DNA of 42,420 nucleotides from a virus: the UHGV virus genome UHGV-0094761, one strand, 5' to 3'. The position numbers and the translations under genes are program-made. Positions 3,074-21,008 of the stretch are shown here, one piece after another; position 1 is the stretch's first letter, and every line of letters starts with the position of its first letter. Below the pieces are notes generated by a model. It ran no database searches. It was not told where the DNA came from and saw nothing but the letters and a program-made list of their open reading frames with translations.

Positions 3074-3492
3074 GCCGTAGCCCCTTCTTGATATTTTTCG
3101 AACCAGAACACAACCGGCTTTTCGACTACTTCAACCAGGCCAAATCGTTCAGCGGTGCGGAAGTTGACACTGCTCTTGCGCCCGCGCTCAACCTGTAGAG
3201 ATATTTGTTTTCTGAACATCTCCAGCGAGTAAGAGGTTTTGAACAAGTTGCAGGGAGCGCATGCCGGAAACTGATTTTCCAGGGTATCAGCGTAGATATT
3301 CCGCACCTCTCCAGTAGCTTTGAGCTTGAAAATGCCTTTTTCAGCGGCCTTCATATCCTGCTCAGATATTCTCGCCACTGGCTGCACATGGTCAGCATGC
3401 CAGCCTTTCTCTGGTAGTTCACAGCCACAATAAGCACAGCGACCGCCGAACTTCATGCGCAACTCTGCACGTTGTTTTTTCGTCAGCGCCAT
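3070..3492 (-). CDS. HNH endonuclease
   Basis: 140 aa; CAYCGC...HADHVQP...CAPCN zinc-finger/HNH pattern; AAGGGGGAG RBS upstream of ATG at 3492. Confidence 0.8.
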   Translation of the reverse strand: MALTKKQRAELRMKFGGRCAYCGCELPEKGWHADHVQPVARISEQDMKAAEKGIFKLKATGEVRNIYADTLENQFPACAPCNLFKTSYSLEMFRKQISLQVERGRKSSVNFRTAERFGLVEVVEKPVVFWFEKYQEGATA

Positions 3493-3493
3493 C

Positions 3494-3892
3494 TCACTCC
3501 CCCTTCACGCCAATGCCAGCGGCGGCAAGCGCATCACGAAATGCACCAACAACTGCACAGGTGTTAAACATGTCATCGTTGATGCTGCCATCGTCGTTAC
3601 GGTAATCGGCTGGTAATTTAACGGTCACCTTACGCGCCTCCAGTTCTGCTATGCGCTTCTCTGCGGCTTCCAGTGCCTCCACAAGCCTTTCGATTTTTAA
3701 AAATGCTGCATACGCCAAATCAGAAATAGGTCGCTCGAACTGAATTTCTTTGCCATTTTCGTTTTCAATAATTGATTCGAAAATAGCCCCTGCAACAGGG
3801 GACTCTTGTAGTTCGCGTAGTTGTTTTGCCGTTTCCAGCGCATTGACTATCAGCATGTCGGTACGCAGCGCCTGTTTGTTGAGTGCTGTCAT
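3494..3892 (-). CDS. Hypothetical protein (coiled-coil)
   Basis: Start placed at the internal ATG at 3892 (MTALNKQ...), which overlaps the upstream stop as ATGA; the ORF track's longer start at 3967 would overlap the upstream gene. Confidence 0.5.
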   Translation of the reverse strand: MTALNKQALRTDMLIVNALETAKQLRELQESPVAGAIFESIIENENGKEIQFERPISDLAYAAFLKIERLVEALEAAEKRIAELEARKVTVKLPADYRNDDGSINDDMFNTCAVVGAFRDALAAAGIGVKGE

Positions 3893-4383
3893 TGGGCTTC
3901 CTCCAGTTTCGATTTGCGCAGTGCTTCTTTGTAACTTGCCTTTGCCGCTTTCTTTGTCGGCATCCAATCACCGCGAACGTCATAATACGAATCCCAATAC
4001 GCCCGCGAACGGCGGACCATGCGGTATTCCCATTTGTACCGGCCAACTTCACGGTCCTCGTAAACCGGCAACTCAATCCCCAGCCACTCCCCAAACGATT
4101 CGCAGACTTCTGAGTGAAGATAATCATCGTAACGAGTACGTTTCTTCGGCTCTGGAAGTGCAGAAATTGCCGCTTCCTCGCCTTTTTCTGTGACGTGGTA
4201 AAGCGTTCCACCACCCACAAAATCAGGCGCGGGACGGGAGGTAGCGAAACCATCAGATACCAGTTCTTCCCACTTCACGTTATCCGTATGCCCTTCGCCA
4301 GCCAGGAAATAATTACGATATGGAGTGCGGTTTCGCTCACTGATGCCCAGCGCATGCTGCATGAGTTCAATTCCAGTGCTCAT
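3889..4383 (-). CDS. Hypothetical phage protein (164 aa)
   Basis: Protein-like ORF; ATG at 4383 overlaps the stop of the upstream 84-aa gene (ATGA). Confidence 0.6.
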   Translation of the reverse strand: MSTGIELMQHALGISERNRTPYRNYFLAGEGHTDNVKWEELVSDGFATSRPAPDFVGGGTLYHVTEKGEEAAISALPEPKKRTRYDDYLHSEVCESFGEWLGIELPVYEDREVGRYKWEYRMVRRSRAYWDSYYDVRGDWMPTKKAAKASYKEALRKSKLEEAQ

Positions 4384-5462: not shown

Positions 5463-6290
5463 TTAGGCTTTAAAGTTACCGATGAAAGTTTCCACTGATT
5501 CACCTTCGAACTTGCTGATCAGCAAATCGCGGAATTCGTTGGCGATCGCTTCTTCCTGGGCTTCAAGTTGGACAATGCGCAGAACAAAGCAGGGTTCATC
5601 GCTGGTCAGCAGGCTGTTACGCATGCTAAAGCGGCGTTCACCCAGACCTTCATACGGCACACATTTGAACTCGAACGCCACAGGCATTACGTCTTTGCTG
5701 CTTGCTTCAACGCTTTGCATCAGCGATTTTGTACCAGCGAAATCACCAGTTTCATGGTCCTGCTGGGTTGCTTGCTGAATAGTGATACGACGCACAGCCT
5801 GAGCCGCCTGGGAAATCTGCATCGTATTGCCATCAGCATCAAACGCCAGAAGGTAATCGCTCCAGTCTTCCAGCCATTCGGCGATTTGCTTTTGCTTCAG
5901 GCGTTGACCATCGATCTGCAGTAGCGCGCGGAACGGGGCGGTTTTCTTCAGGGTGATTGAAGCAACGTTATCGGCGTGACCGGGATTATCCAGGGTGCCG
6001 ATGTTGAACACTGAACGGGCGGTCATGTTGTCAGCGTCAATAAAGCAACGAGCTGGCTCACTGTCGCTGGCGTAACCTTTAGAATAACGTGCGAAGTCGT
6101 CAATACTGGTTGTGGTCATTGCGCCACGAAAGCGGAAACGCTCCAGAGAAAAGCGCTCGAGGCTTTCAATGCCAGTACCCTCTGGCAGTAATGCGGTCGG
6201 GCAAGCCAGGCCATGAATATCATTCAGGTGATAACCTGAAAGAACCAGGTCTTTGACCTGCTTGAAGGTACCGCTGTCTAACTGAGACAT
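5463..6290 (-). CDS. YfdQ-like protein (DUF2303-like, CPS-53-type prophage early protein)
   Basis: 275-aa ORF with AAGGAA RBS; family assignment is from memory of the CPS-53 yfdP-yfdQ-yfdR gene order, which matches the YfdP-like / this gene / HD-protein order here. Confidence 0.6.
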   Translation of the reverse strand: MSQLDSGTFKQVKDLVLSGYHLNDIHGLACPTALLPEGTGIESLERFSLERFRFRGAMTTTSIDDFARYSKGYASDSEPARCFIDADNMTARSVFNIGTLDNPGHADNVASITLKKTAPFRALLQIDGQRLKQKQIAEWLEDWSDYLLAFDADGNTMQISQAAQAVRRITIQQATQQDHETGDFAGTKSLMQSVEASSKDVMPVAFEFKCVPYEGLGERRFSMRNSLLTSDEPCFVLRIVQLEAQEEAIANEFRDLLISKFEGESVETFIGNFKA

Positions 6291-9129: not shown

Positions 9130-9681
9130 GTGGGTAACGAACCTATTTGGAAAGTCGAGCGTCAGCCTTCCTGGCTGGTGGTAGCGATTAAAAAAACGAT
9201 TACCGATCTGCCTGGTGGATATGCTGAGGCGGCGGAATGGTTGGGCGTGACAGAGAACGCATTGTTTAACCGCCTTCGTGTTGACGGCGACCAGATCTTC
9301 CCACTGGGCTGGGCAATGGTTTTACAACGTGCTGGTGGTTCAACTCATATAGCTGATGCTGTCGCGCGCCATTCTCAGGGCGTATTTGTACCGCTGGCAG
9401 ACGTTGATGATCTGGATAACGCCGATATAAACCAGCGCCTGATGGAGTCCATTGAATGGATAGGTCGTCATTCTAATTTTGTACGTAAAGCCACGGCTGA
9501 TGGGGTAATTGACGCAGATGAGCGTGCTCAGATTGAGGAAAACAGCTATCAGGTTATCGCGAAGTTCCAGGAGCACGTAACGCTTCTTTATCGAGTTTTT
9601 TGTGTCGCTGAAAAGAGTGACGCCCGCGAGTGTGCAGCTCCGGGCGCCTTGGCGAACAACTCTTCGAGTATGGAGAAATAA
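9130..9681 (+). CDS. CII-like / YdaT-like phage regulatory protein
   Basis: GTG at 9130 preceded by an AAGGGG RBS, just after the cro stop; the track ORF starting at 8914 overlaps cro in another frame; family call is from memory and tentative. Confidence 0.5.
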   Translation: MGNEPIWKVERQPSWLVVAIKKTITDLPGGYAEAAEWLGVTENALFNRLRVDGDQIFPLGWAMVLQRAGGSTHIADAVARHSQGVFVPLADVDDLDNADINQRLMESIEWIGRHSNFVRKATADGVIDADERAQIEENSYQVIAKFQEHVTLLYRVFCVAEKSDARECAAPGALANNSSSMEK

Positions 9682-9853
9682 TCCGCATGAGCAGTTTAAC
9701 GGCTTTTAACCGTCTACCGCAACTAAGGATGATCCCGGTTTCGGGTACTCCGTTGTTTCGGTATGAACGCAGATTATCAAACCGCTGGGTTCCGTGTAAC
9801 CACAGTAGGGCGGTTTCAATTGTGGGGGTCTACAACCGGAGGGCAAAACGCCT

Positions 9854-10033
9854 GTGCGCGAACTTAACCGAAGGTTCAAAGACCACCGCGGAGTGCAAGT
9901 CCGTGTTATCCGCTGGGAGCCAGAAACACAGCGCGTTATCTATCTGCGTGATGGCTACCCACACGAATGCTTCAGCCCACTTGAGCATTTCAGGCAAAAG
10001 TTCAGGGAGATAACGGACGATCATGAGCACTAA
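9854..10033 (+). CDS. Small hypothetical protein (59 aa), absent from the ORF track
   Basis: Manual translation from GTG 9854 with a GGAGGG RBS 10 nt upstream: VRELNRRFKDHRGVQVRVIRWEPETQRVIYLRDGYPHECFSPLEHFRQKFREITDDHEH; protein-like composition; overlaps the replication gene start by 11 nt. Confidence 0.4.
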   Translation: MRELNRRFKDHRGVQVRVIRWEPETQRVIYLRDGYPHECFSPLEHFRQKFREITDDHEH

Positions 10034-10880
10034 ATTAACCGGCTACGTATGGGATGGTTGCGCGGCGTCGGGCATGAAGTTGTCTAGTGTCGCGATCATG
10101 GCTCGCCTCGCTGATTTCAGCAGCGATGAGGGAGTGTGCTGGCCGTCCATTGAAACTATTGCTCGCCAGCTTGGCGCAGGGCCTAGCACGATCAGAACGG
10201 CAATCGCAAAGCTTGAAAAAGATGGCTGGCTCACGCGTACACAGCGCCGTAATGGTAACCGTAATGCGTCGAACGTGTACCGCCTGAATGTGGCGAAACT
10301 TCAGGCTGCCGCATTTTCTCAACTGTCAGATTCTGACACGTCAAAATCTGACGCATCAAAATTTGACGCCTCAAAAACTGACCCGTCGAAATCCGTCAAA
10401 AACGGCGGTTTTGACCCGTCAGAATCTGGCGGGGATCCGTCAGTAAAATCAAAACAAGATCCACAAGTAACTTCAAAACCCTCTTGTCCGGTTGCGGCGC
10501 AACCAGACCCTGAAGTCGTGATTACTGATCAGGCAATTTTGGTTCTGACCCATTTGAACCAGATCAGCGGATCCCGGTATCAGAAATCCAAAACATCCCT
10601 AGAGAACATCCGTGCCCGACTGCGTGAGGGATACAGCGTTGCAGACCTGCAACTGGTTATCGACCTGAAGCATGAGCACTGGCACGAGAACGACGAGCAG
10701 TACCAGTACATGCGCCCGGAAACGCTGTTCGGCCCGAAGAAATTCGAGAGCTATCTGCAAAGCGCTACCCGCTGGGAGCAGAAAGGACGGCCTAAACGCG
10801 CTGACTGGGGTGCGAAAAAGCGCGATGTGATGGCTTTTGGTCCGGTTGATACAACGATTCCAGAGGGGTTCAGAGGATGA
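10023..10880 (+). CDS. Replication initiation protein (lambda O-like, N-terminal HTH, phage-type C-terminal domain)
   Basis: 285 aa; N-terminal winged-helix/HTH region (IETIARQLGAGPSTIRTAIAKLEKDGWL); central low-complexity region encoded by iterons; position after cro/cII matches lambdoid order. Confidence 0.75.
   Translation: MSTKLTGYVWDGCAASGMKLSSVAIMARLADFSSDEGVCWPSIETIARQLGAGPSTIRTAIAKLEKDGWLTRTQRRNGNRNASNVYRLNVAKLQAAAFSQLSDSDTSKSDASKFDASKTDPSKSVKNGGFDPSESGGDPSVKSKQDPQVTSKPSCPVAAQPDPEVVITDQAILVLTHLNQISGSRYQKSKTSLENIRARLREGYSVADLQLVIDLKHEHWHENDEQYQYMRPETLFGPKKFESYLQSATRWEQKGRPKRADWGAKKRDVMAFGPVDTTIPEGFRG
10326..10450. repeat. Iteron array (putative replication origin) inside the replication initiator gene
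   Basis: Seven or more tandem repeats of about 15 bp of the form (C/T)TGAC(G/C)C(A/G)TCAAAA(T/A), followed by an A-rich stretch; analogous to ori-lambda lying inside gene O. Confidence 0.65.
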
Positions 10881-12196
10881 CGTTAAACAAATATTGCCAG
10901 TCGCTGGCGGCACTACGTAGCCAACCAGCCCACGAATTGAAAGAAGTTGGCGATCAGTGGCGAACACCGGATCTGCTTTTTTGGGGGATCAACGCGCTAT
11001 TTGGTCCATTAGTTCTGGACTTGTTTGCTGACGCCGACAACGCGAAATGCCCGGCATGGTACACCGCCGAAGATAACGCGCTGACACAGAACTGGTCTGA
11101 ACGTCTGGATGAACTGGGCGGCGCGGCTTTTGCCAACCCTCCATATAGCCGCTCCCAGTATCACGACAAGCAGGCGATTACGGGTATGACGCACATCATG
11201 AATCACACCATGGACATGCGTGAAAGAGGTGGTCGCTATATTTACCTGGTGAAGTCTGCCACAAGTGAAACATGGTGGCCGGAAGATGCCGATCACATCA
11301 TGTTTATTCGTGGTCGTATTGGGTTCGATCTGCCTGTGTGGTTTGTACCTGCTGACGAAAAACAGAAACCCACCAGCGCGTTTTTTGCCGGTGCTATAGC
11401 TGTATTCGATAAGTCATGGCGTGGTGAGCGGTTCAGCTATATCAACCGTACAGAACTGGAGGCAAAAGGGCGGGCGTTTATGACTTTGGCGCAATTTGCT
11501 GCCAGCAAGTCTCAACCTGCAACTGCCACACCATCTGTAGCTGACAAGCCAGAAGCAGAGTTGCCACTTACCCAGAAAGATATTTTTGATATCAGCGGTG
11601 TCGAGGCGTGGGCATGCGTTAGAGCTGCGTTCGGCGATAAAGAAGAATACACATTCAGTGAATCGAAGTTTGGGCATACCTGGGCGGCGGATTCTGTCGA
11701 AGCACCGGAATTCACTCAGGTATCACCATTAACGATCGACAAAGCGAAGCTGCTTATTCGTGAGAGTATTTTGTTCGGTGTGGATGAGTGGCTGTTGTCG
11801 ATTGAATTCGATGACGCTGCTGCGCGCCTGGATATGTCGGAACGTATTCGGACTGTTGCCCTTGAAGCATCTGGTGAATATGGCATGAACAGTACTGATT
11901 TCATTGCAGCTATGGGAAGCCTGGATGTTTCCAGTTGGTCCAATATTCGCCAGATCCGCATGCACATCCGTGAGAAAGCTAAACCAGTATCGGATCCGCT
12001 TCCCGAGTCCCGTATCTGGCCGCTGGAGGTTGGAATTGTATTCGACCAGGTAGACGGCGCTGACATGCTGGATGAATCACAGCAGAACAAGCTGAAAGCC
12101 AACATCAATCAACTCTGGCTGGAGCGGACTGCCACCAGCGAAATCATTACTGCTGCTTCTGAACTTGTTCGCAATATGCGGGGAGAGGCTGCGTGA
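10877..12196 (+). CDS. Phage Dam-family N6-adenine DNA methyltransferase fused to a C-terminal domain of unknown function
   Basis: 439 aa; N-terminal region has WRTPD and NPPYS motifs typical of the phage Dam family; about 250 extra C-terminal residues; start overlaps the upstream stop (ATGA). Confidence 0.65.
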   Translation: MTLNKYCQSLAALRSQPAHELKEVGDQWRTPDLLFWGINALFGPLVLDLFADADNAKCPAWYTAEDNALTQNWSERLDELGGAAFANPPYSRSQYHDKQAITGMTHIMNHTMDMRERGGRYIYLVKSATSETWWPEDADHIMFIRGRIGFDLPVWFVPADEKQKPTSAFFAGAIAVFDKSWRGERFSYINRTELEAKGRAFMTLAQFAASKSQPATATPSVADKPEAELPLTQKDIFDISGVEAWACVRAAFGDKEEYTFSESKFGHTWAADSVEAPEFTQVSPLTIDKAKLLIRESILFGVDEWLLSIEFDDAAARLDMSERIRTVALEASGEYGMNSTDFIAAMGSLDVSSWSNIRQIRMHIREKAKPVSDPLPESRIWPLEVGIVFDQVDGADMLDESQQNKLKANINQLWLERTATSEIITAASELVRNMRGEAA

Positions 12197-12579
12197 AACT
12201 GGTCCTGCCTTTTCCTCCGAGCGTGAATACTTACTGGCGCGCCCCTAACAAGGGGCCGCTGGCCGGTCGTCACCTCATTAGCGCTGATGGCCGTAAATAC
12301 CAAAGCGCTGCCTGCGTGGCGATCATTGAGCAATTACGACGTCTCCCGAAGCCATCGACTGAACTGGCAGCGGTAGAAATCACTCTGTACCCGCCGGATG
12401 CGCGCCGCCGGGATATCGATAATTACAACAAAGCCCTGTTTGACGCGCTGACGCATGCGGGTGTCTGGGAAGACGACAGCCAGATTAAGCGCATGCTGGT
12501 GGAATGGGGACCCGTTGTGCCGAAAGGTCGGGTAGAGATAACGATCAGCAGATATGAACCGGCGGGTGCAGCCGCCTGA
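12193..12579 (+). CDS. rusA: RusA-type Holliday junction resolvase
   Basis: 128 aa; MKLVLPFPPSVNTYW...DIDNYNKALFDALTHAGVWEDDSQI is the characteristic RusA signature; GTG start overlaps the upstream stop (GTGA) with a GGGAGAGG RBS. Confidence 0.85.
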   Translation: MKLVLPFPPSVNTYWRAPNKGPLAGRHLISADGRKYQSAACVAIIEQLRRLPKPSTELAAVEITLYPPDARRRDIDNYNKALFDALTHAGVWEDDSQIKRMLVEWGPVVPKGRVEITISRYEPAGAAA

Positions 12580-12592
12580 TATGGAGAAAAGT

Positions 12593-13276
12593 ATGAGCCA
12601 GTTAGCAACAACAGCATTAACCATGTCCAGCAGCGATATTGCTGAGCTGGTGGAATCACGACATGACCATGTTAAACGGTCCATTGAACGCCTGGCAGAG
12701 CGCGGTGTTATTGAACTCCCCCCAATGGGGGAAGTTAAAAATCACCTCAATCAGTCGGTATCGGTTTATCTGATAGGGAAGCGGGACAGTTATATCGTTG
12801 TCGCGCAGCTGTCGCCGGAGTTTACCGCACGTCTGGTTGATCGCTGGCAGGAGCTTGAGCAGGCACAGCAGCAGACGATTCCTCAATCATTCTCTGAAGC
12901 CCTACGTCTTGCAGCTGACCTTGCAGAACAAAAACAGCAGTTGACTAACGAACTGGCTGCCGCGGCGCCGAAGGTAGCGTTTGTTGATCGGTACTGTACA
13001 GCCAGTGGGTCAATGTCATTCCGTCAGGTGGCAAAACTGCTTAAGGCCAAAGAGCCAGATCTGCGGTTATTCCTCCTTGAGAACGACATCATGTATCGCC
13101 TTGGCGGAACGATGACCCCACGGCATCAGCATATTGATGCGGGCCGTTTTGAAGTGAAAACCGGTACATCCGTAACCTCAAATCATGCATTCAGCCAGGC
13201 ACGATTCACGGCGAAAGGCGTGCGCTGGATTGGTGGACTGTGGGCAGAACACATTGCCAGGGGGCAGGTCGCGTGA
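12593..13276 (+). CDS. Rha-family phage regulatory protein with C-terminal KilAC/ANT antirepressor domain
   Basis: N-terminal Rha-like region (MSSSDIAELVESRHDHVKRSIERL) and C-terminal KilAC-like region (AFVDRYCTASG...FEVK); start at ATG 12593 with a GGAG RBS. Confidence 0.7.
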   Translation: MSQLATTALTMSSSDIAELVESRHDHVKRSIERLAERGVIELPPMGEVKNHLNQSVSVYLIGKRDSYIVVAQLSPEFTARLVDRWQELEQAQQQTIPQSFSEALRLAADLAEQKQQLTNELAAAAPKVAFVDRYCTASGSMSFRQVAKLLKAKEPDLRLFLLENDIMYRLGGTMTPRHQHIDAGRFEVKTGTSVTSNHAFSQARFTAKGVRWIGGLWAEHIARGQVA

Positions 13277-14268
13277 GAGCTCTGCTTACCCCCGAGATCG
13301 CCCATCGTATGGGGATTGTGCTGTTCCGTCCCGGTGCGGAACTGATGCACCTCTTCATGCGTGGTCGCGTTCTGCTCGAGCCTGAACCAGAAGAAATGGC
13401 GTCATTCAGTACCGGGGCTGTTCCGGCAGCCATTCAGCCGCTGGCTGATGATCCGGTAATGCGTCAGGTCTTCGAGAATGAGAGGGTTATTCAGCGTGCC
13501 GGTGGGCTTCCTTCCCTTGAGCAATGGTTGAGTAATCGGTTTGAATGCCAGTGGCCACATTCAACGTGGCACGACAAGAACTTCACAACAATGCGGCACC
13601 CACCAGGAAGCATTCGCCTGTGCTGGCATTGCGATCACACTTTGTCGGGGCAGCATACCGAACAGCTTGCAGGTATAGCGGCCGGAAACCTGGTATCCTG
13701 GATTCTGGAAGTCATTCGGCGTGATTCTGGTTTTCCCGAGTCTCATATCCTGACGCTTCCGGAACTGTGCTGGTGGATGGTCAGAAACGACCTGGCTGAT
13801 GTTATTCCGGAAAGCGTTGCGCACAAAGGGCTGCGCCTTCCGGATGAGAAGATCCGTTCTGTCATGAGGGAAAGCGACATAGTGCCTTCCTCGTCAGCAA
13901 CCAGACTCGTGCAGGAGAAGGCGAAGAAGATCCTCACGCTCTCTGTTGATCCGGAGTCGCCAGAGTCTTTTATGCTCAGGCCAAAACGTCGCCGCTGGAT
14001 AAATGAGACGTACACCCGCTGGGTTAAAACACAGCCCTGTGAGTGTTGCCGACGGCCAGCAGATGATCCGCACCATATCGTAGGGCACGGTATGGGGGGG
14101 ACAGCAACAAAAGCCCATGATCTCTTCGTGATCCCTCTGTGCAGAGAGTGCCACGATGAGTTACACGCCGATGTACTGGCATTCGAGCAGAAGCATGGTA
14201 CGCAGCTTGAGCTGCTACTGCGTTTTATGGATCGGGCGCTGGCGATCGGCGTAATTGCGAAAGCTTAA
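13273..14268 (+). CDS. DUF968-like phage protein (YdfU-like)
   Basis: About 330-aa protein with a C-terminal Cys/His cluster (CECCRRPADDPHHIVGHG...CRECHDELH); GTG at 13273 overlaps the Rha stop; alternative starts at 13240 or 13309. Confidence 0.55.
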   Translation: MRALLTPEIAHRMGIVLFRPGAELMHLFMRGRVLLEPEPEEMASFSTGAVPAAIQPLADDPVMRQVFENERVIQRAGGLPSLEQWLSNRFECQWPHSTWHDKNFTTMRHPPGSIRLCWHCDHTLSGQHTEQLAGIAAGNLVSWILEVIRRDSGFPESHILTLPELCWWMVRNDLADVIPESVAHKGLRLPDEKIRSVMRESDIVPSSSATRLVQEKAKKILTLSVDPESPESFMLRPKRRRWINETYTRWVKTQPCECCRRPADDPHHIVGHGMGGTATKAHDLFVIPLCRECHDELHADVLAFEQKHGTQLELLLRFMDRALAIGVIAKA

Positions 14269-14285
14269 GTGTATGGAGAAAAGTA

Positions 14286-14651
14286 ATGCGTGATATTCAG
14301 ATGGTTTTAGAACGTTGGGGGGGCTGGGCATCAGCTGATAACTCTGGTGTTGACTATTCCCATATTGCCGCTGGCTTCAAGGGACTTTTACCGCAGACAA
14401 GCAAAACCAGGTTGTCATGTACAGATGATGATGCGCTTATCATTGAAGGCTGCCTGGCACGACTGAAAAGCCGAAAGCCATATGAGCATTCGCTTCTTGT
14501 CGCTCATTACCTGTACGGTATCTCGAAGAGGAAGATAGCAAAAGCGCGAAAGAAGGACGAGAAACTGATTCGTATTGAGATACAGATGGCGGAAGGATTT
14601 ATCGACGGCTGTTTGTCTATGTTAGACATACGGTTAGAGATGGATTATTAG
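14286..14651 (+). CDS. Phage antitermination protein Q-like (small Q family)
   Basis: 121 aa; MRDIQMVLERWGGWA... N-terminus; position after the rusA/DUF968 block matches Q in lambdoid phages; family call is from memory. Confidence 0.6.
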   Translation: MRDIQMVLERWGGWASADNSGVDYSHIAAGFKGLLPQTSKTRLSCTDDDALIIEGCLARLKSRKPYEHSLLVAHYLYGISKRKIAKARKKDEKLIRIEIQMAEGFIDGCLSMLDIRLEMDY

Positions 14652-14658
14652 TTTTGAT

Positions 14659-14695
14659 AGACTAAACGGTATTCGAGACCGTTTAGTCTTCTTTG
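14659..14695 (+). terminator. Perfect 12-bp hairpin between convergent Q and the minus-strand cassette
   Basis: AGACTAAACGGT-attcgag-ACCGTTTAGTCT (14659-14689) followed by TCTTTGG; overlaps the 3' end of the minus-strand gene ending at 14683. Confidence 0.5.
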
Positions 14696-15081
14696 GCTGT
14701 ACCGGAAGGTATAACTTCAACAGTTTTACCAATATTGACAATCTTCCTAACGGTTTCCTCACGGTCTTGAATTAGCTCAGCTCTAAATTTCTCACTTACG
14801 TGCGGGCTTTTCAATTGTTCGTCGATGCCCTTCAAATCTCTTTCAAGCCTATTCCGTAGGGCTGCTTCAGCTGGTGATTCAAGTCCATGTCGATTAATAA
14901 CGTACATCATTACGTAGGTTATCCCAGCAGAAACTAAAGGCGCGAGAGCGTATAAGAAAGGACGCCACTCACTGTTCTGTTCTGGCGCGACAAGAGGAAC
15001 TAAAGTCGTCAAAACAGCACCAAGGCCCCCAGTAGTGAGTCCAGAGTTGGTGCTTAACATATTTTTCTTATCGTCGCTCAT
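14683..15081 (-). CDS. Cassette gene 3: small membrane protein (132 aa, two predicted TM helices, charged C-terminal domain)
   Basis: Hydrophobic segments GLGAVLTTLVPLVA and FLYALAPLVSAGITYVMMYVI; start overlaps the upstream stop (ATGA at 15078-15081); AT-rich. Confidence 0.6.
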   Translation of the reverse strand: MSDDKKNMLSTNSGLTTGGLGAVLTTLVPLVAPEQNSEWRPFLYALAPLVSAGITYVMMYVINRHGLESPAEAALRNRLERDLKGIDEQLKSPHVSEKFRAELIQDREETVRKIVNIGKTVEVIPSGTAKED

Positions 15082-15335
15082 TTTTTTGAATGCCCATGAT
15101 TGGTTGCATCATCAATTAGATCAACGATTTTCTTGCCATCTTCTTGATTTAAACGAAGAGTGACAGTTTTTTCGAGCGAACGATTTGCATTGTAGAACCT
15201 AAGTTCCACAACTTTGGTAGGGAAGACCTTGCGCCACAGCAGTGCTGAGCCAGCATATACAAAGCGATAGAAGGTCGGAAGGCTTATAATTACCCCCAAC
15301 CAAAACACGATTTGTAAAAGTTGTTGCTGTATCAT
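15078..15335 (-). CDS. Cassette gene 2: small membrane protein (85 aa, one N-terminal TM helix)
   Basis: Hydrophobic segment LLQIVFWLGVIISLPTFY; 15 nt downstream of cassette gene 1; coupled to gene 3. Confidence 0.55.
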   Translation of the reverse strand: MIQQQLLQIVFWLGVIISLPTFYRFVYAGSALLWRKVFPTKVVELRFYNANRSLEKTVTLRLNQEDGKKIVDLIDDATNHGHSKK

Positions 15336-15350
15336 TAGGTTCTACCGTGG

Positions 15351-16232
15351 CTATATCAATTTTTTCCCCTGCATCACTCGATGCCGAAGTACTTTTTTTA
15401 TAACGTACTTTTCGGTCTTTCCTCGCGCTGAAGTGGTACGGGTTGTTTCTAAAAGGACAGAGAACATATCCTCACTAGTTACAGTCCCCTCGGCCATCCT
15501 TACTTTAGCTAAAAACTCATAGTCTGTAAGTAGTACGGAATGCTCCTCTTGGTTGTAATCCATTCTCCAGCCTTTCTCGCTGTGGAAATTAACCTGAGTA
15601 AACTTAACATTAACTTCTTTTTCTTCAACGGTTTTTGTCAGCAGCGTTCCTCTTGGAAGCGGCTTAATTTCCTCGGTCTGATCTCCTTCGAGTTTCACCA
15701 GTACTTCGTCATTTCCATCTACTATTTTGAAAACAGGAGACTCTTTTCCTTCAAGTGGACCTTGAACAACAGAGATCAAAGCATCACGAATCACTGGCTC
15801 GGTTACAAGAGTGGCAACAGCTGACGGGCATTCGATATCTCCATCTTCAAACTCAAGGACTGCCATATCTGTTCCAGCTTTTTTAGTTACCGAAACGACC
15901 TTTTTCGACCCCAACTGCCTAATCAAAGACAACGCACTAGCATGTGCAGCCGCACCAACAGTTCCCACTATCCCAATAGTTTTTAGAACATCTATTGCAT
16001 CAGGTAAAAGTTGCACAACAGTATAAGCAATACCAACTGAACCTTTCTTGAGTGGGGCAGAAACTAAGACCTTAACCGATTTATTGCCATCGTTTAATAA
16101 ATCATCGGCTTTGTTAATTAGTGTCGTCATGGAAAGTATTGATTTTCCAAGATCTTCTGCGTCAATCGCGTGTTTCGACAATTCTTTATCATCGGCGTCA
16201 TAAAACACCTTAAAGGAAGTAGACTTCTCCAT
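15351..16232 (-). CDS. Cassette gene 1: soluble 293-aa protein of unknown function
   Basis: AAGGAAAG RBS before ATG at 16232; no recognisable catalytic motif by eye; AT-rich, unlike the surrounding phage genes. Confidence 0.65.
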   Translation of the reverse strand: MEKSTSFKVFYDADDKELSKHAIDAEDLGKSILSMTTLINKADDLLNDGNKSVKVLVSAPLKKGSVGIAYTVVQLLPDAIDVLKTIGIVGTVGAAAHASALSLIRQLGSKKVVSVTKKAGTDMAVLEFEDGDIECPSAVATLVTEPVIRDALISVVQGPLEGKESPVFKIVDGNDEVLVKLEGDQTEEIKPLPRGTLLTKTVEEKEVNVKFTQVNFHSEKGWRMDYNQEEHSVLLTDYEFLAKVRMAEGTVTSEDMFSVLLETTRTTSARGKTEKYVIKKVLRHRVMQGKKLI

Positions 16233-16401
16233 GACTTTCCTTGCTAGGCCCGATATCTTTAAGGCTCATAATGGATGGGGTTAGTTATTTAGATATGTAA
16301 TTTACAGAGAAAAAAATACAAAATCACTAACGCGGTCCGCATTTTATCTATTACTGTGTTAAGAGTGGTCACTTAGACACGAACTTAAAGCATTTCACAA
16401 C

Positions 16402-16422
16402 CTCGCTTCGGCGGGTTTTTTT
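16402..16422 (+). terminator. Rho-independent terminator (UUCG tetraloop) on the plus strand
   Basis: CTCGC-TTCG-GCGGG followed by 7 T (16416-16422); implies a short plus-strand transcript starting in 16233-16400, possibly a PR'/tR'-like late leader. Confidence 0.55.
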
Positions 16423-16502
16423 ATGTCTTTTGCAAAGACTTCTTGCTGCTGTTTACAACCAGAGTTATCTGTATGTCACGCAAATAATTTTAGGTAAAAG
16501 AC

Positions 16503-16694
16503 ATGCTAAATCAGGAAGATATGACAGAAACCGCGAAGGCTGTTTTCAATGAGTTAAGCGATAAACCAGCAACGGCTGGGGAGATTGCACAGAATACCCA
16601 CCTTAGCCGAGAACGTTGCCAGCTCATTCTCACACAGCTGGTGATGGCGGGTTTATCTGATTACCAGTTTGGATGTTATAAACGCCTCCAGTAA
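16503..16694 (+). CDS. Small hypothetical protein (63 aa), possible winged-helix regulator
   Basis: ORF with AGGTAAAAGA upstream; ...AGEIAQNTHLSRERCQLILTQLVMAGL resembles a small DNA-binding fold; weak call. Confidence 0.4.
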   Translation: MLNQEDMTETAKAVFNELSDKPATAGEIAQNTHLSRERCQLILTQLVMAGLSDYQFGCYKRLQ

Positions 16695-16844
16695 TGGGGG
16701 CTTTCTGCTGTGGAAATGGGCGGCTGGTGGGTGTTAGCGCACCCGGCCAGCCATCAGCTCATGCTTTCAGGTCACAAGCTAACCAAGGCCCACTGCTTTA
16801 GCGCAAAAGCAACGTGAGCCTATCAGAGTTACGCTTACTGATCT

Positions 16845-17897
16845 ATGAAAAGTACTGTAAAAATAAACAGTGTTGAGTTAATCAACGCTGATAGCCTGCA
16901 TTACGTCGCCACCCTCCCGGATAACTCTATTGATCTGATAGTTACGGATCCGCCGTATTTCAAAGTGAAACCCAACGGCTGGGACAACCAATGGAAGGGG
17001 GACGAGGACTACTTACGCTGGCTTGATAGCTGTCTGGCTGAGTATGCTCGCGTTCTTAAACCTGCTGGCAGCATTTACCTGTTTTGCGGTCACCGACTGG
17101 CCTCAGATATAGAGATTATGATGCGTGCCCGGTTCAACGTTTTGAATCACATAATTTGGGCAAAACCATCAGGCCGCTGGAATGGATGTAACAAAGAAAG
17201 CCTGCGTGCGTACTTTCCATCTACGGAACGGATTTTGTTTGCTGAGCACTATCTTGGGCCGTATACAGGTAAAGAGGATGTTTACGAAAGGAAAAGCACA
17301 GAGCTAAAGCAGCACATTATGACGCCGCTGATTGATTACTTCCGTAATGCCCGTGAATCACTGGGTGTCAGCTCGAAAGAAATAGCTGAGGCAACAGGAA
17401 AGAAAAACATGGCGTCACACTGGTTTGGTGCAAGCCAATGGCAACTACCAAATGAAGTGGACTATAGAAAATTGCAGGAACTGTTCACGCGGATCGCTAT
17501 CGATAAGCACATTGAGCAGAAACTTGAACATCCTCACCACCAGCTGGTAGCTACCTATCAGTCATTAAACCGCAAGTATTCAGAATTGCTGGAGGAATAC
17601 AAAACTCTCCGGCGCTGCTTCTCTGTCTCCGCTCTAGTTCCGTATACCGACGTATGGACGCATAAGCCTGTTCAGTTTTATCCGGGCAAACATCCATGCG
17701 AAAAACCTGCCGACATGCTGAAGCAGATCATTAGCGCCAGCAGCAGGCCGGGGGATATCGTTGCCGATTTCTTTATGGGCTCTGGTTCAACTGTGAAAGC
17801 AGCAATAGAACTTGGCCGTCGGGCGATCGGTGTAGAACTGGAGGAAGACAGGTTTATACAGACCACCGAAGAGGTGGAAAAACTGAAAAAATCATAA
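16845..17897 (+). CDS. DNA methyltransferase (beta-class N6-adenine/N4-cytosine, orphan)
   Basis: 350 aa; catalytic DPPY motif (VTDPPYF) near the N-terminus and AdoMet-binding FxGxG (DFFMGSGSTV) near the C-terminus; no adjacent restriction endonuclease. Confidence 0.8.
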   Translation: MKSTVKINSVELINADSLHYVATLPDNSIDLIVTDPPYFKVKPNGWDNQWKGDEDYLRWLDSCLAEYARVLKPAGSIYLFCGHRLASDIEIMMRARFNVLNHIIWAKPSGRWNGCNKESLRAYFPSTERILFAEHYLGPYTGKEDVYERKSTELKQHIMTPLIDYFRNARESLGVSSKEIAEATGKKNMASHWFGASQWQLPNEVDYRKLQELFTRIAIDKHIEQKLEHPHHQLVATYQSLNRKYSELLEEYKTLRRCFSVSALVPYTDVWTHKPVQFYPGKHPCEKPADMLKQIISASSRPGDIVADFFMGSGSTVKAAIELGRRAIGVELEEDRFIQTTEEVEKLKKS

Positions 17898-18042
17898 CGA
17901 TCACCACGCTTCTCCGTTGCTGTGGTGATCACCATCTTCAGGCACCGGGAATCATCCTTAATTTTTACTTGAACATAAGATCCCGGTTGCCTGATCCCCT
18001 TCAATCACGCACAGCGCCATCCGAACTATCGGAGGTGAGGCT

Positions 18043-18321
18043 ATGACCAGAATGAGCACCATTTACAGCAGACTTTCATATGGATCAGGAACCACGCTTG
18101 CCGGCTGCGGTGTATCAGCGAAGGCATATGCCGAAACAGCTAAAACAGCAAAAGAGGTGTCCTGGATGTTGGCCGACAGAATTGCAGGGTTAAGCCTGAG
18201 CGACTGGGCAATTATTGTCGGTATCGCATGCACCGTTATTACCTGTGCAGTGAACTGGTATTTCCGCTGGAAAGAACGGGAGGATCGTCGCAATGGCTAT
18301 GCCACCAAAGCTGAAGAATAA
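18043..18321 (+). CDS. Holin (pinholin, S21-like) with dual-start motif
   Basis: 92 aa; N-terminal MTRM dual-start pattern; TM helix AIIVGIACTVITCAVNWYF; charged C-terminus REDRR; GGAGGTGAGG RBS; precedes a SAR endolysin. Confidence 0.7.
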   Translation: MTRMSTIYSRLSYGSGTTLAGCGVSAKAYAETAKTAKEVSWMLADRIAGLSLSDWAIIVGIACTVITCAVNWYFRWKEREDRRNGYATKAEE

Positions 18322-19365: not shown

Positions 19366-19405
19366 AAACTGGTATGATTAGGCTTCACTTTTCGGTGGTG
19401 GGATT

Positions 19406-19939
19406 ATGAGAAAAGAAATAACGGTAAGCAATGCTAAGCATGAGGCAGGTCATTGGATAACGGGTTGGATACTTGAAAAGGCAAGCGAGGACATAGTCAT
19501 TGCCACAACCATAGTGGGCGATTCATATTGTGGTCGTGCCCCTCATCCGGATTTTGTTGATTTACAACAAATTAACTTTCATCTGGGTAACCGGGTTATC
19601 AACTTACTCAGCGGAGCTATATCCGAAAGCCTTGTATGTGGAGAATTTAATCGTGAGATATATAAGCATCTCATTGGCGATTACAAAGGAGCATGGCCAG
19701 ATTTTTTTATGGCTTCTGAGTTGTTCCGCTACTATTACAGGTCGTTGCATTCCTCTGAACGAGGGTCATTTGAAGAAGAGTGGAATCTTCTAATTACGAA
19801 AGCTGAAAAAATAATTAAGCAGCATGAAATGTTTATCAATCATGTAGCAAATGAAGCTATCCGACGCCTGTCCGTCGAACAATCACAAATAACATTGTCG
19901 CAAGTTGATGTGCTAGAAATATTAAAGAATAACTCGTGA
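19406..19939 (+). CDS. Stand-alone FtsH-like (M41-type) zinc metallopeptidase domain protein
   Basis: 177 aa; N-terminal AKHEAGHWITGWIL resembles the FtsH protease-domain motif AYHEAGHALVGWLL, and LLSGAISESLVCGEF resembles FtsH LYGGRLAEEIIYG; no AAA+ domain; AT-rich; GGTGGTGGGA RBS. Confidence 0.6.
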   Translation: MRKEITVSNAKHEAGHWITGWILEKASEDIVIATTIVGDSYCGRAPHPDFVDLQQINFHLGNRVINLLSGAISESLVCGEFNREIYKHLIGDYKGAWPDFFMASELFRYYYRSLHSSERGSFEEEWNLLITKAEKIIKQHEMFINHVANEAIRRLSVEQSQITLSQVDVLEILKNNS

Positions 19940-20000
19940 TGAACATTCACTGAATTCCTAGGATAATGTTATATATGCTACTCTAGAAAGCGGAGGGGCA

Positions 20001-20234: not shown

Positions 20235-20348
20235 TATGCGCATCGCACGCGCACATCAAAGAGAGTCTTTCAGTAGTGAGCCTGGGTAAACCGTTAACTC
20301 TTGGCGGCTTTGCCGTGCGAAAGGCTCACGTCTAAAAGGAAACCCCTC

Positions 20349-21008
20349 ATGAAATATTTATCGCTGCAGCAGGCAATGCTGGGCATGCGCGTAACAATGA
20401 CCGACGACGGCCTGATTCTCAAAAGTCCTGCAGGTAGCGCACACTACGATTTAAAAGGTCGCCGCCATGCAGTTTGGGGTGATGCTTCTTTCTTCCCTGA
20501 ACATCTACGTGTGAAAGATAAACGCAAACCGAAAGGTGGCCACGTCAGTTATGGCAATGGCGAAATCGTTGGCTATCGGACTGATGGTTCTATTGCCTGG
20601 CGAATGGGGAAGTTCGAAGAACCTACAAAAACGCCGAAGCCGAAGACCAGCAATGACAGCATCGATGTTAGCAAGATTCTTGACGATGCATGGAGAAGTG
20701 GTCGCCCTCTTGTCGGGGAGGCAGTTAACGATCTGGCTGAGGCTATAGCAAATGCCAGGGCATGCTCTCAAAGCTATCAGCAACATGCCTGCGGCGGTGA
20801 GACAACACCATCTACCTATACCGTATCTATCGGTATTAACTGCAACAATGAAGCCCATACTTCTGGTATCGGTAGCAACATCTATAGCATTCTGAAAAAT
20901 GCACTGGCGCGCGATAAAGCAATGCCTGATTTTGAAGAGACCATCCGTAAAGCCATCCAGAAAGAATGTCAGCCCGGTGGACTGATCTGGAATTCCCGCA
21001 GTCGTTAA
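20349..21008 (+). CDS. Hypothetical phage protein (220 aa) upstream of cos
   Basis: Start at ATG 20349 (MKYLSLQQ...) with an AAGGA RBS; the track's longer start at 20301 lacks an RBS. Confidence 0.55.
   Translation: MKYLSLQQAMLGMRVTMTDDGLILKSPAGSAHYDLKGRRHAVWGDASFFPEHLRVKDKRKPKGGHVSYGNGEIVGYRTDGSIAWRMGKFEEPTKTPKPKTSNDSIDVSKILDDAWRSGRPLVGEAVNDLAEAIANARACSQSYQQHACGGETTPSTYTVSIGINCNNEAHTSGIGSNIYSILKNALARDKAMPDFEETIRKAIQKECQPGGLIWNSRSR

What the first reader, a model, noticed from the sequence alone, without database searches (positions are those of the whole stretch)
14659..16500. AT-rich three-gene cassette (soluble 293-aa protein plus two small membrane proteins) convergent with Q: candidate undescribed defence / abortive-infection module
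Between the Q gene and the lysis genes sits a self-contained minus-strand unit of visibly lower GC than the phage backbone: a 293-aa soluble protein (15351-16232) with no motif I can recognise, then an 85-aa single-TM protein (15078-15335) and a 132-aa two-TM protein (14683-15081) that are translationally coupled (ATGA). It is transcribed against the phage late direction, with its own upstream region (16233-16400) and a perfect 12-bp hairpin at its 3' end. This opposite-strand, lysogen-expressed layout in the Q-to-lysis moron hotspot, with a soluble sensor-like protein plus small membrane proteins, resembles two-component exclusion systems such as lambda RexA/RexB, though I see no sequence similarity to Rex.
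Basis: partly seen in the sequence, partly recalled or inferred. Interest (0 to 1): 0.8.

Follow-up and report, generated by a model that had tools for sequence, protein, structure and literature searches.

The report
Prophage gp29-like three-gene defence cassette
A self-contained three-gene insert just after the phage's late-gene regulator Q encodes a distant relative of a proven mycobacteriophage anti-phage protein (MichelleMyBell gp29) plus two small membrane proteins, so it is most likely a prophage-carried defence module of a poorly understood family, here in bacteria that are easy to work with.

Summary
Three minus-strand genes, A (293 aa, 15351-16232), B (85 aa, 15078-15335) and C (132 aa, 14683-15081), form a tight, lower-GC operon convergent with Q. 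A 12-bp hairpin sits at the operon's 3' end.

A is not an orphan:
- It hits PADLOC candidate PDC-S42 (1.5e-29) and NCBIfam 'LAPAL_fam'.
- Profile-profile comparison shows full-length homology to mycobacteriophage MichelleMyBell gp29 (99.5 %, E 5e-23).
- gp29 is the toxic partner of the validated, abortive-infection-like gp29/gp30 prophage defence.
- MichelleMyBell gp29 itself hits the PDC-S42 model.

In all 51 related loci, A, B and C are intact, syntenic, under purifying selection and co-diverging. Their divergence is independent of the adjacent Q. The same layout (A-like gene, then a ~80-aa one-TM gene, then a TM-plus-helical-tail gene) recurs in a Vibrio tailless prophage and in a 24 %-identical phage contig.

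The cassette fills a variable slot between Q and a Q-linked conserved block with a terminator, probably PR'/tR'. That slot is empty in one E. coli prophage and holds a TIR-TM gene in phage mEp390.

DefensePredictor (2026) lists the E. coli homologue as a predicted, untested defence gene. No phenotype was tested here and the mechanism is unknown. Verdict: a new three-gene variant of a known defence kind.

The parts
15351..16232 (-). Gene A, 293 aa. A gp29-like / PDC-S42 / NCBIfam LAPAL_fam protein. It has an N-terminal alpha/beta region, a conserved hydrophobic Gly/Ala-rich helical hairpin (aa ~65-105) and a C-terminal beta-rich, OB-like domain (aa ~200-290, the most conserved part).
15078..15335 (-). 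Gene B, 85 aa. It has one N-terminal TM helix, a conserved P..RF.Y....LW...FP motif and a ~45-aa charged tail that is probably cytoplasmic.
   Evidence: ORF. Family alignment and hydropathy. Present in 51 of 51 loci directly after A. dN/dS 0.11-0.12. Only a weak phrog_36230 hit.
14683..15081 (-). Gene C, 132 aa. It has two hydrophobic helices (aa 14-32 and 41-63), then the invariant motif RHG(L/F)E(S/T)P..A..R....RDL..I and a charged helical tail. Its start overlaps B's stop (ATGA).
   Evidence: ORF. Alignment and hydropathy. 51 of 51 loci, with the 4-nt overlap in most. dN/dS 0.04. No significant family hit.
14659..14689 (.). Perfect 12-bp stem with a 7-nt loop between the convergent Q and C genes. 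It overlaps C's stop codon. It is a candidate bidirectional terminator or a 3' stabiliser.
   Evidence: Sequence. RNAfold energies, and hairpins of different sequence at the same place in many relatives. mEp390's authors annotated bidirectional terminators at the equivalent site.
16233..16319 (-). The 5' region of A. It has a Shine-Dalgarno sequence (AAGGAAAG) 5 nt before the ATG. The promoter was not identified with confidence; the best guess is GTGATT-17-TAAATT.
   Evidence: Sequence. The promoter scan found nothing here. The region is conserved only within subfamilies.
14286..14651 (+). Antiterminator Q (PF06530). This is the left border of the slot, not part of the cassette.
   Evidence: Pfam 1.4e-53, full length. 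A Q of this family is convergent with the cassette in 51 of 51 loci, but its divergence does not track that of A (r = -0.04).
16320..16422 (+). The right border of the slot. It is a Q-linked conserved block (16320-16391, core TGTTAAGAGTGGTCACTTAGACACGAACTTAAA) followed by an intrinsic terminator (stem 16402-16415, T-run 16416-22). This is probably the PR'/Q-loading site and tR'.
   Evidence: Conserved upstream of A in all loci whatever A's divergence, with the terminator stem varying in sequence but not in form. Present after a different cargo gene in mEp390. Present ~30 bp after the Q stop codon in an 'empty' E. coli prophage. Terminator scan. The general layout of a Q cassette is described in bioRxiv 10.1101/651190.

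Best explanation
The cassette is an accessory (moron) anti-phage defence operon carried by a lambdoid prophage. It is the enterobacterial, three-gene form of the family whose founding member is mycobacteriophage MichelleMyBell gp29/gp30.

Shown here:
- A is a full-length homologue of gp29.
- A, B and C form one co-inherited, co-diverging operon under purifying selection.
- The operon sits in a polymorphic slot between Q and a Q-linked conserved block.

Proposed working (inferred): the operon is expressed from its own promoter in the lysogen. It is insulated from early transcription by the hairpin after Q, and from late transcription because PR' lies to its right.
- A is the cytoplasmic or membrane-peripheral sensor and toxic component. 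Its C-terminal OB-like domain is the likely ligand-sensing part.
- A's hydrophobic helical hairpin is the likely contact with the membrane or with partner proteins.
- B (one TM) and C (two TM), whose tails are probably cytoplasmic, hold A in check at the inner membrane. This is the role proposed for gp30 with the toxic gp29.
- Infection by a heterotypic phage supplies a trigger after DNA entry. The complex then damages membrane function or otherwise arrests the cell, so no progeny are made (abortive infection).
For: Homology of A to gp29:
- hhalign of the window family against MichelleMyBell gp29: 93.5 %, E 2e-7.
- Against the gp29 family profile: 96.6 %.
- With a 50-sequence diverse profile: 99.5 %, E 5.4e-23, 272 columns.
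- Window A, MichelleMyBell gp29 and the Vibrio homologue all hit the PADLOC PDC-S42 model, as do all 50 diverse family members.
- The Vibrio homologue carries a depositor note naming the DefenseFinder model MMB_gp29_gp30__gp29.

Literature on gp29/gp30:
- The gp29/gp30 system defends against Tweety by 4-5 logs (PMC8549241).
- Adsorption and injection proceed but phage production fails (PMC6426606).
- gp29 is toxic and gp30 is a putative membrane protein (PMC11856565).

The operon as a unit:
- Synteny in 51 of 51 loci.
- Identities co-vary, r = 0.92-0.99, and do not track Q.
- dN/dS is 0.03-0.12.
- The same three-gene layout occurs in the Vibrio element's accessory locus next to the integrase and in a 24 %-identical member.
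- A gp30-like ORF overlaps the gp29 homologue in Mycolicibacterium.

Accessory status:
- No homologue in any of 50,697 phage records apart from the Vibrio element, although 400 records carry this Q family.
- The slot is empty in E. coli 100416 and holds a TIR-TM gene in mEp390.
- The cassette is kept in a decayed prophage (L057).

Independent prediction: DefensePredictor log-odds 5.78 for the E. coli cluster WP_021526742.1.
Against: - No phenotype has been measured for this cassette or for any proteobacterial member that I could find.
- Identity to gp29 is only ~17-21 %, so function may have drifted.
- B and C show no significant similarity to gp30, nor to the small ORFs of the Vibrio element and L064.
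- No promoter for A was identified, and lysogenic expression is assumed.
- NCBI names the family a 'putative phage structural protein'.
Confidence: 0.68

Rival explanations
1. A toxin-antitoxin-like addiction module. A is a toxin and B/C are membrane antitoxins, and the main role is to stabilise the prophage or this DNA segment rather than to stop other phages.
For: gp29 is reported as toxic, with gp30 tolerated alongside it (PMC11856565). The cassette persists in a decayed prophage remnant (L057). The genes are tightly coupled.
Against: The homologous gp29/gp30 system gives strong, phage-specific defence with escape mutants in a phage gene (PMC8549241). TA behaviour and abortive-infection defence are not mutually exclusive.
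Confidence: 0.1
2. A superinfection-exclusion system acting at the envelope. The membrane proteins B and C, with A, would block DNA entry or receptor function of incoming phages and would not kill the cell.
For: There are two small inner-membrane proteins. Many prophage morons with small membrane proteins exclude DNA injection; Charlie gp32 is the example cited in PMC6426606.
Against: For the homologous MichelleMyBell system, adsorption and DNA injection are reported to proceed (PMC6426606). A is a large, conserved, mostly cytoplasmic protein with an OB-like domain, which is not needed for a simple entry block.
Confidence: 0.09
3. A lysogenic-conversion or host-fitness cargo unrelated to phages, for example envelope stress or colonisation. 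A variant of this rival is an accessory lysis or virion function, as NCBI's name 'putative phage structural protein' suggests.
For: The NCBIfam name. Family members often sit next to lysis genes: downstream of the holin in MichelleMyBell and directly upstream of the amidase and holin in L064. There are weak, non-significant holin-PHROG hits.
Against: - The cassette is on the opposite strand to the late genes and probably upstream of PR'.
- It is absent from 400 phage genomes that carry the same Q family.
- It occurs in the accessory locus of a tailless Vibrio prophage.
- Its homologue has a demonstrated defence role.
- The holin hits have E > 0.05.
Confidence: 0.08

Closest known systems
Mycobacteriophage MichelleMyBell gp29/gp30 (DefenseFinder 'MMB_gp29_gp30'; Dedrick et al. 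2017)
   Same: A is homologous to gp29 over its full length, and both hit PADLOC PDC-S42. Both systems are prophage-borne. In both, a ~300-aa protein is followed by small, translationally coupled membrane protein gene(s), and both lie beside the lysis region.
   Different: - Identity is about 17-21 %, and the hosts are Proteobacteria rather than Actinobacteria.
- There are two partner genes (a one-TM 85-aa protein and a two-TM 132-aa protein with a long helical tail) instead of one 67-aa two-TM protein, with no detectable sequence similarity to gp30.
- The cassette lies in the Q-to-PR' slot on the opposite strand.
- No phenotype is known.
PADLOC candidate PDC-S42 and the DefensePredictor cluster WP_021526742.1
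   Same: A is a direct HMM member of PDC-S42. The E. coli cluster representative is the 90 %-identical A homologue in L001.
   Different: Both resources treat it as a single, unvalidated gene with no known relative. Here it is tied to gp29, and two obligatory small membrane partners are shown.
Lambda RexA/RexB, and the Rex-like systems Sbash gp30/31 and CarolAnn gp44/43
   Same: A prophage-borne pair consisting of a cytoplasmic protein and membrane protein(s), with an abortive-infection logic (PMC6426606). This is how the cassette may work.
   Different: - There is no sequence or fold relationship. A has no DUF4747 hit and no Rex hit in the PDB searches.
- The partners are one-TM and two-TM mini-proteins, not a 4-TM RexB-type protein.
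- The cassette is not co-transcribed with the repressor.
Other cargo of the same Q-to-PR' slot, e.g. the TIR-TM protein gp47 of phage mEp390
   Same: Same position and same opposite-strand orientation, between a PF06530 Q and the conserved block, with a terminator hairpin after Q. gp47 is a PADLOC TIR-TM hit, 1.6e-57.
   Different: The proteins are unrelated. This is a positional analogue only.

Membership tests
MichelleMyBell gp29/gp30 defence system (MMB_gp29_gp30) | A gp29-homologous protein of about 300 aa | tested here: met
   hhalign 99.5 %, E 5.4e-23, 272 aligned columns. gp29 and A hit the same PADLOC HMM.
MichelleMyBell gp29/gp30 defence system (MMB_gp29_gp30) | A small membrane-protein gene immediately downstream in the same operon | tested here: met
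   B (one TM) and C (two TM) follow A, with a 15-nt gap and then a 4-nt overlap. gp30 is a 67-aa two-TM protein overlapping gp29.
MichelleMyBell gp29/gp30 defence system (MMB_gp29_gp30) | Partner protein homologous to gp30 | tested here: not met
   hhalign of the B and C family profiles against gp30 gives E 0.41 and 0.05, probability about 1 % or less. This test has little power for proteins this short and hydrophobic.
MichelleMyBell gp29/gp30 defence system (MMB_gp29_gp30) | Lysogenic expression and abortive-infection-type protection against heterotypic phage | not testable with these tools
   Known only for MichelleMyBell, from the literature.
PADLOC PDC-S42 (candidate single-gene defence) | Match to model PDLC05015 | tested here: met
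   E 1.5e-29, residues 5-286 against profile positions 4-291 of 302.
NCBIfam NF053583 'LAPAL motif-containing putative phage structural protein' | Score above the curated cut-off | tested here: met
   189.5 bits against a cut-off of 60. The motif is LLPDAI at aa 75-80.
NCBIfam NF053583 'LAPAL motif-containing putative phage structural protein' | Structural (virion) role implied by the name: the gene belongs to the late or structural module | tested here: not met
   - The gene is on the opposite strand, outside the late operon.
- It is absent from 400 phages with the same Q family.
- It is kept in a decayed prophage.
- It lies in the accessory locus of the Vibrio element.
Lambda RexAB-type exclusion | A RexA-like DUF4747 protein | tested here: not met
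   No Pfam hit at E <= 1. Nothing Rex-like appeared in the PDB sequence or fold searches.
Lambda RexAB-type exclusion | A RexB-like polytopic (about 4 TM) membrane partner | tested here: not met
   B has one and C has two hydrophobic helices.
Holin / lysis proteins | Significant match to a holin family | tested here: not met
   Only PHROG holin hits at E 0.07-0.15. The true holin lies at 18043-18321.

The most novel reading that the evidence does not exclude
The gp29/PDC-S42 superfamily has at least 502 clusters at 50 % identity. It may represent a mechanistically new class of membrane-coupled abortive-infection system. In this reading, a non-enzymatic OB-fold sensor detects a phage nucleic-acid intermediate or a phage protein. 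It then uses its own hydrophobic hairpin, gated by two mini membrane proteins, to collapse membrane integrity. That would be a three-part sensor, gate and effector unrelated to Rex, CBASS-TM, Kiwa or any other characterised system, and the enterobacterial cassette would be its first genetically tractable model.
Probability: 0.2. Interest if true: 0.7.

Novelty: new variant of a known kind. Interest (0 to 1): 0.5.

Why it matters
The gp29/gp30 defence has been known since 2017 but has no mechanism. Outside Actinobacteria its relatives are filed only as an unvalidated single-gene candidate (PDC-S42), as a 'predicted novel defense gene', or under a probably misleading 'structural protein' name.

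Linking these labels has three consequences:
- It shows that the proteobacterial form always comes with two small membrane partners, so the system boundaries used by annotation tools can be redefined.
- It gives the mechanism an E. coli-compatible test bed.
- It marks the slot between a PF06530 Q gene and its downstream conserved block as a place to look for further prophage cargo, including defence genes.

Tried and rejected
- **Structure of A itself.** The single-sequence AF2 model of A was useless (pLDDT 40.6). I therefore modelled an actinobacterial gp29-family member instead (pLDDT 77.5).
- **Fold searches.** They gave only generic OB-fold matches and no full-length hit. The afdb50 library was unavailable.
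- **PDB profile search.** Nothing found.
- **Pfam.** No hit for A, B or C.
- **Rfam on 14000-18200.** Nothing found.
- **GTDB genome scan.** It returned a single locus.
- **Third homologue search.** Run with the diverse profile, it was swamped by close relatives and added no taxonomy.
- **Homology of B and C to gp30 or to the small ORFs of the Vibrio element and L064.** Not significant.
- **Pinning down sigma-70 promoters for A or PR' by eye and by scan.** No convincing hexamers were found, so I report the block only as 'probable PR'/tR''.
- **Literature.** No paper mentions PDC-S42 or 'LAPAL motif'. The Dedrick 2017 paper is not held. A search of the DefensePredictor supplement text that is held (several files were cut when stored) found no member of the A family among the sequences listed there.
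- **Considered and rejected.** CBASS-type 2TM effector for C (E 0.052); holin; RexA.
Full report
**1. The observation**

A (293 aa, 15351-16232), B (85 aa, 15078-15335) and C (132 aa, 14683-15081) all lie on the minus strand. A and B are separated by 15 nt, and B and C overlap by ATGA. GC is 0.40-0.47 across the cassette, against 0.50-0.58 in the Q-side backbone and the lysis genes.

Q (14286-14651) is a full-length PF06530 antiterminator and the holin lies at 18043-18321. A perfect 12-bp stem (14659-14670 / 14678-14689) lies between the convergent Q and C genes and overlaps C's stop codon. It lacks a clear U-run on either strand. Hairpins of different sequence occupy the same spot in many relatives, and the authors of phage mEp390 annotated bidirectional terminators there.

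All three ORFs are real genes:
- They are intact in 51 of 51 related loci.
- dN/dS is 0.03 for A, 0.11-0.12 for B and 0.04 for C wherever dS is not saturated.

**2. What protein A is**

Pfam finds nothing, but three other libraries do:
- PADLOC PDC-S42, an unvalidated candidate single-gene defence model: E 1.5e-29, full length.
- NCBIfam NF053583, 'LAPAL motif-containing putative phage structural protein': 189.5 bits against a cut-off of 60.
- phrog_3243, function unknown.

The only homologue among 50,697 deposited phage genomes lies in a tailless Vibrio prophage (25.6 % identity). Its depositors noted a hit to the DefenseFinder model MMB_gp29_gp30__gp29. I therefore fetched mycobacteriophage MichelleMyBell and compared profiles:
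- Window family against gp29: 93.5 %, E 2e-7.
- Against a 26-sequence gp29 family profile: 96.6 %, E 6e-10.
- With a 50-sequence profile of diverse relatives found by an exhaustive HMMER scan (502 clusters at E <= 1e-3): 99.5 %, E 5.4e-23 over 272 columns, essentially end to end.

The motifs that are invariant or nearly so in A's family line up with gp29's. These include H21, PAxxGS at 60-65, FxQVNF...GWR, D237xxF240, D255 and KYVIKKVxRHR. MichelleMyBell gp29 itself hits the PDC-S42 HMM (1.6e-16), as do all 50 diverse relatives.

So PDC-S42, 'LAPAL_fam' and gp29 are one superfamily.

**3. What is known about gp29/gp30**

This comes from the literature, not from tests here:
- MichelleMyBell lysogens reduce plating of phage Tweety by 4-5 logs, and Tweety gp54 is a counter-defence (PMC8549241).
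- The system is 'typical of abortive infection', because adsorption and DNA injection proceed but production is thwarted (PMC6426606).
- gp29 is described as toxic and gp30 as a putative membrane protein, with the mechanism unknown (PMC11856565).
- The primary paper (Dedrick 2017, PMC5508108) is not held.

**4. The partners**

B has one N-terminal TM helix, a conserved P..RF.Y....LW...FP motif and a charged tail. C has two hydrophobic helices followed by the invariant motif RHG(L/F)E(S/T)P..A..R....RDL..I and a helical tail. By the positive-inside rule both tails are probably cytoplasmic; this is an inference.

Across 51 loci, A's identity to the window ranges from 53 to 100 %. B and C track A closely (r = 0.92 and 0.99), whereas the adjacent Q does not (r = -0.04). 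The three genes therefore evolve and move as one unit, independently of the backbone.

The same layout recurs far away:
- In the Vibrio element, the A-like gene is followed by an 83-aa one-TM ORF and a 161-aa two-TM ORF with a helical tail, next to the integrase. This is the accessory locus that the element's describers found enriched in defence genes (PMC11630473).
- In an uncultivated phage contig, the A-like protein is only 24 % identical. It is followed by an 80-aa and a 123-aa ORF of the same types.
- In MichelleMyBell and in a Mycolicibacterium genome, the partner is a single overlapping 67-aa two-TM ORF.

Sequence similarity among these small proteins is not significant. The shared feature is architecture, not demonstrable homology.

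**5. Where the cassette sits**

Upstream of A, every locus carries a conserved block regardless of A's divergence. In the window this is 16320-16391, with the core TGTTAAGAGTGGTCACTTAGACACGAACTTAAA. It is followed on the plus strand by a hairpin and T-run (16402-16422), whose stem sequence varies while its form is kept.

The same block plus terminator is found in two other settings:
- In phage mEp390 it lies after a different minus-strand gene, gp47.
- In an E. coli prophage with no cargo it lies about 30 bp after the Q stop codon.

A Q cassette is defined as the Q gene plus an adjacent PR' promoter, Q-binding and pause elements, a terminator, and then the late genes (bioRxiv 10.1101/651190). 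I therefore read the block as the PR'/Q-loading site and tR'. This is an inference, and I could not identify convincing -35/-10 hexamers.

On that reading, the cassette is wedged between Q and Q's own target site. This explains why every enterobacterial copy is next to this Q family. It also means the late transcript starts to the right of the cassette and does not cross it.

The slot is polymorphic:
- Empty in E. coli 100416.
- A TIR-TM protein in mEp390 (PADLOC 1.6e-57, Pfam TIR_2).
- A DUF6731 protein plus a 147-aa protein in vB_EcoS-716R3.
- An IS element plus two unknown genes in SfIV.
- The A-B-C cassette in the window.

Other points bear on accessory status. None of the 400 phage records with this Q family carries A. 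The exact A protein occurs in 225 assembly blocks, including a decayed prophage that still keeps Q plus the cassette (L057). About 20 of 5,426 complete E. coli genomes carry a 78 %-identical copy at the same place.

**6. Structure and mechanism**

I therefore modelled a gp29-family member that is 77 % identical to gp29, with pLDDT 77.5 and pTM 0.60.

A has no catalytic-looking motif. It does have a hydrophobic Gly/Ala-rich helical hairpin at aa ~65-105. This is the most hydrophobic 19-residue window at the same place in 42 of 50 diverse members, with a median Kyte-Doolittle score of 1.57, which is borderline for a TM helix. It is less hydrophobic in the actinobacterial branch.

My best mechanistic guess is as follows:
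- A is a sensor and toxic component held at the membrane by B and C.
- A post-injection phage cue releases or activates it.
- Activation leads to membrane or energetic failure and an aborted infection.

Only the homology and the operon unity are shown. The rest is inferred from the gp29/gp30 literature and from the anatomy.

**7. Independent prediction**

DefensePredictor (Science 2026, PMC13092281) lists E. coli WP_021549515.1 in its Table S10, in cluster WP_021526742.1. That cluster representative is the A homologue of locus L001. The entry is a 'predicted novel defense gene' with mean log-odds 5.78 and no recognised defence homologue. I found no member of the A family in the held supplement text of that paper, part of which was cut when stored, so whether one was tested there is not settled. 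No paper mentions PDC-S42 or the LAPAL motif.

**8. Verdict**

However, the cassette is not an orphan:
- It is the enterobacterial three-gene variant of the gp29/gp30 (PDC-S42) family.
- Its resemblance to Rex is functional analogy only.
- NCBI's 'structural protein' name is not supported by the gene's context.

Confidence that this is an anti-phage defence module is about 0.68. Confidence in the specific gate-and-membrane mechanism is about 0.3. Interest is moderate: the kind is known, but the mechanism is open and this version is experimentally tractable.

Noticed in passing
window 16320-16422 (+): A conserved block (core TGTTAAGAGTGGTCACTTAGACACGAACTTAAA, preceded by a small hairpin GCGGTCCGC) plus an intrinsic terminator. 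It travels with PF06530 Q genes whatever lies between them. It is probably the PR'/Q-binding/pause unit and tR', but no clear sigma-70 hexamers could be assigned.
   Followed up: partly
L052 (mEp390) 3428-4246; L061 2986-4374; L059 3450-5369; L066 3986-4168: The slot between Q and the conserved block is a cargo hotspot for opposite-strand genes. It holds a TIR-TM protein in mEp390, a DUF6731 protein (mis-annotated as 'portal') plus a 147-aa protein in vB_EcoS-716R3, and an IS element plus two unknown genes in SfIV. It is empty in the E. coli 100416 prophage.
   Followed up: partly
window 16503-17897 (+): A 63-aa winged-helix (TrmB/DprA_WH-like, below Pfam cut-off) ORF and a 350-aa N6/N4 DNA methyltransferase (PF01555) sit between the putative tR' and the holin, at the head of the late operon. 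No partner nuclease is visible. The pair is shared at 88-96 % identity with E. coli prophages that lack the cassette (Nissle 1917 shares only the methyltransferase side).
   Followed up: partly
window 19400-20000 and 20301-21008 (+): A second low-GC patch (0.37-0.43) lies just after the Rz-like gene. It contains a 177-aa ORF and a 235-aa ORF with no Pfam hit. Near-identical prophages (L055, L056, L058) carry different genes here, so this is another variable cargo site between the lysis and terminase genes.
   Followed up: no
L057 (GCA_033835985.1) 9539-14040: A decayed prophage remnant has lost its lysis and head genes and most replication genes. It still keeps RusA, ANT, DUF968, Q, the intact A-B-C cassette and the 63-aa ORF.
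   Followed up: partly
L064 2370-6900: In the 24 %-identical relative, the three-gene cassette is co-oriented with the amidase, holin and Rz-like genes and lies immediately upstream of them. It is preceded by a lipoprotein and a small secreted Cys-rich protein. Across lineages the family keeps turning up at the edges of lysis modules.
   Followed up: partly
window 10877-12196 (+) and 5463-6290 (-): The prophage carries a second methyltransferase: a 439-aa protein with a Dam (PF05869) domain in the replication region, annotated via L055. It also carries a DUF2303 protein in the leftward early region.
   Followed up: no
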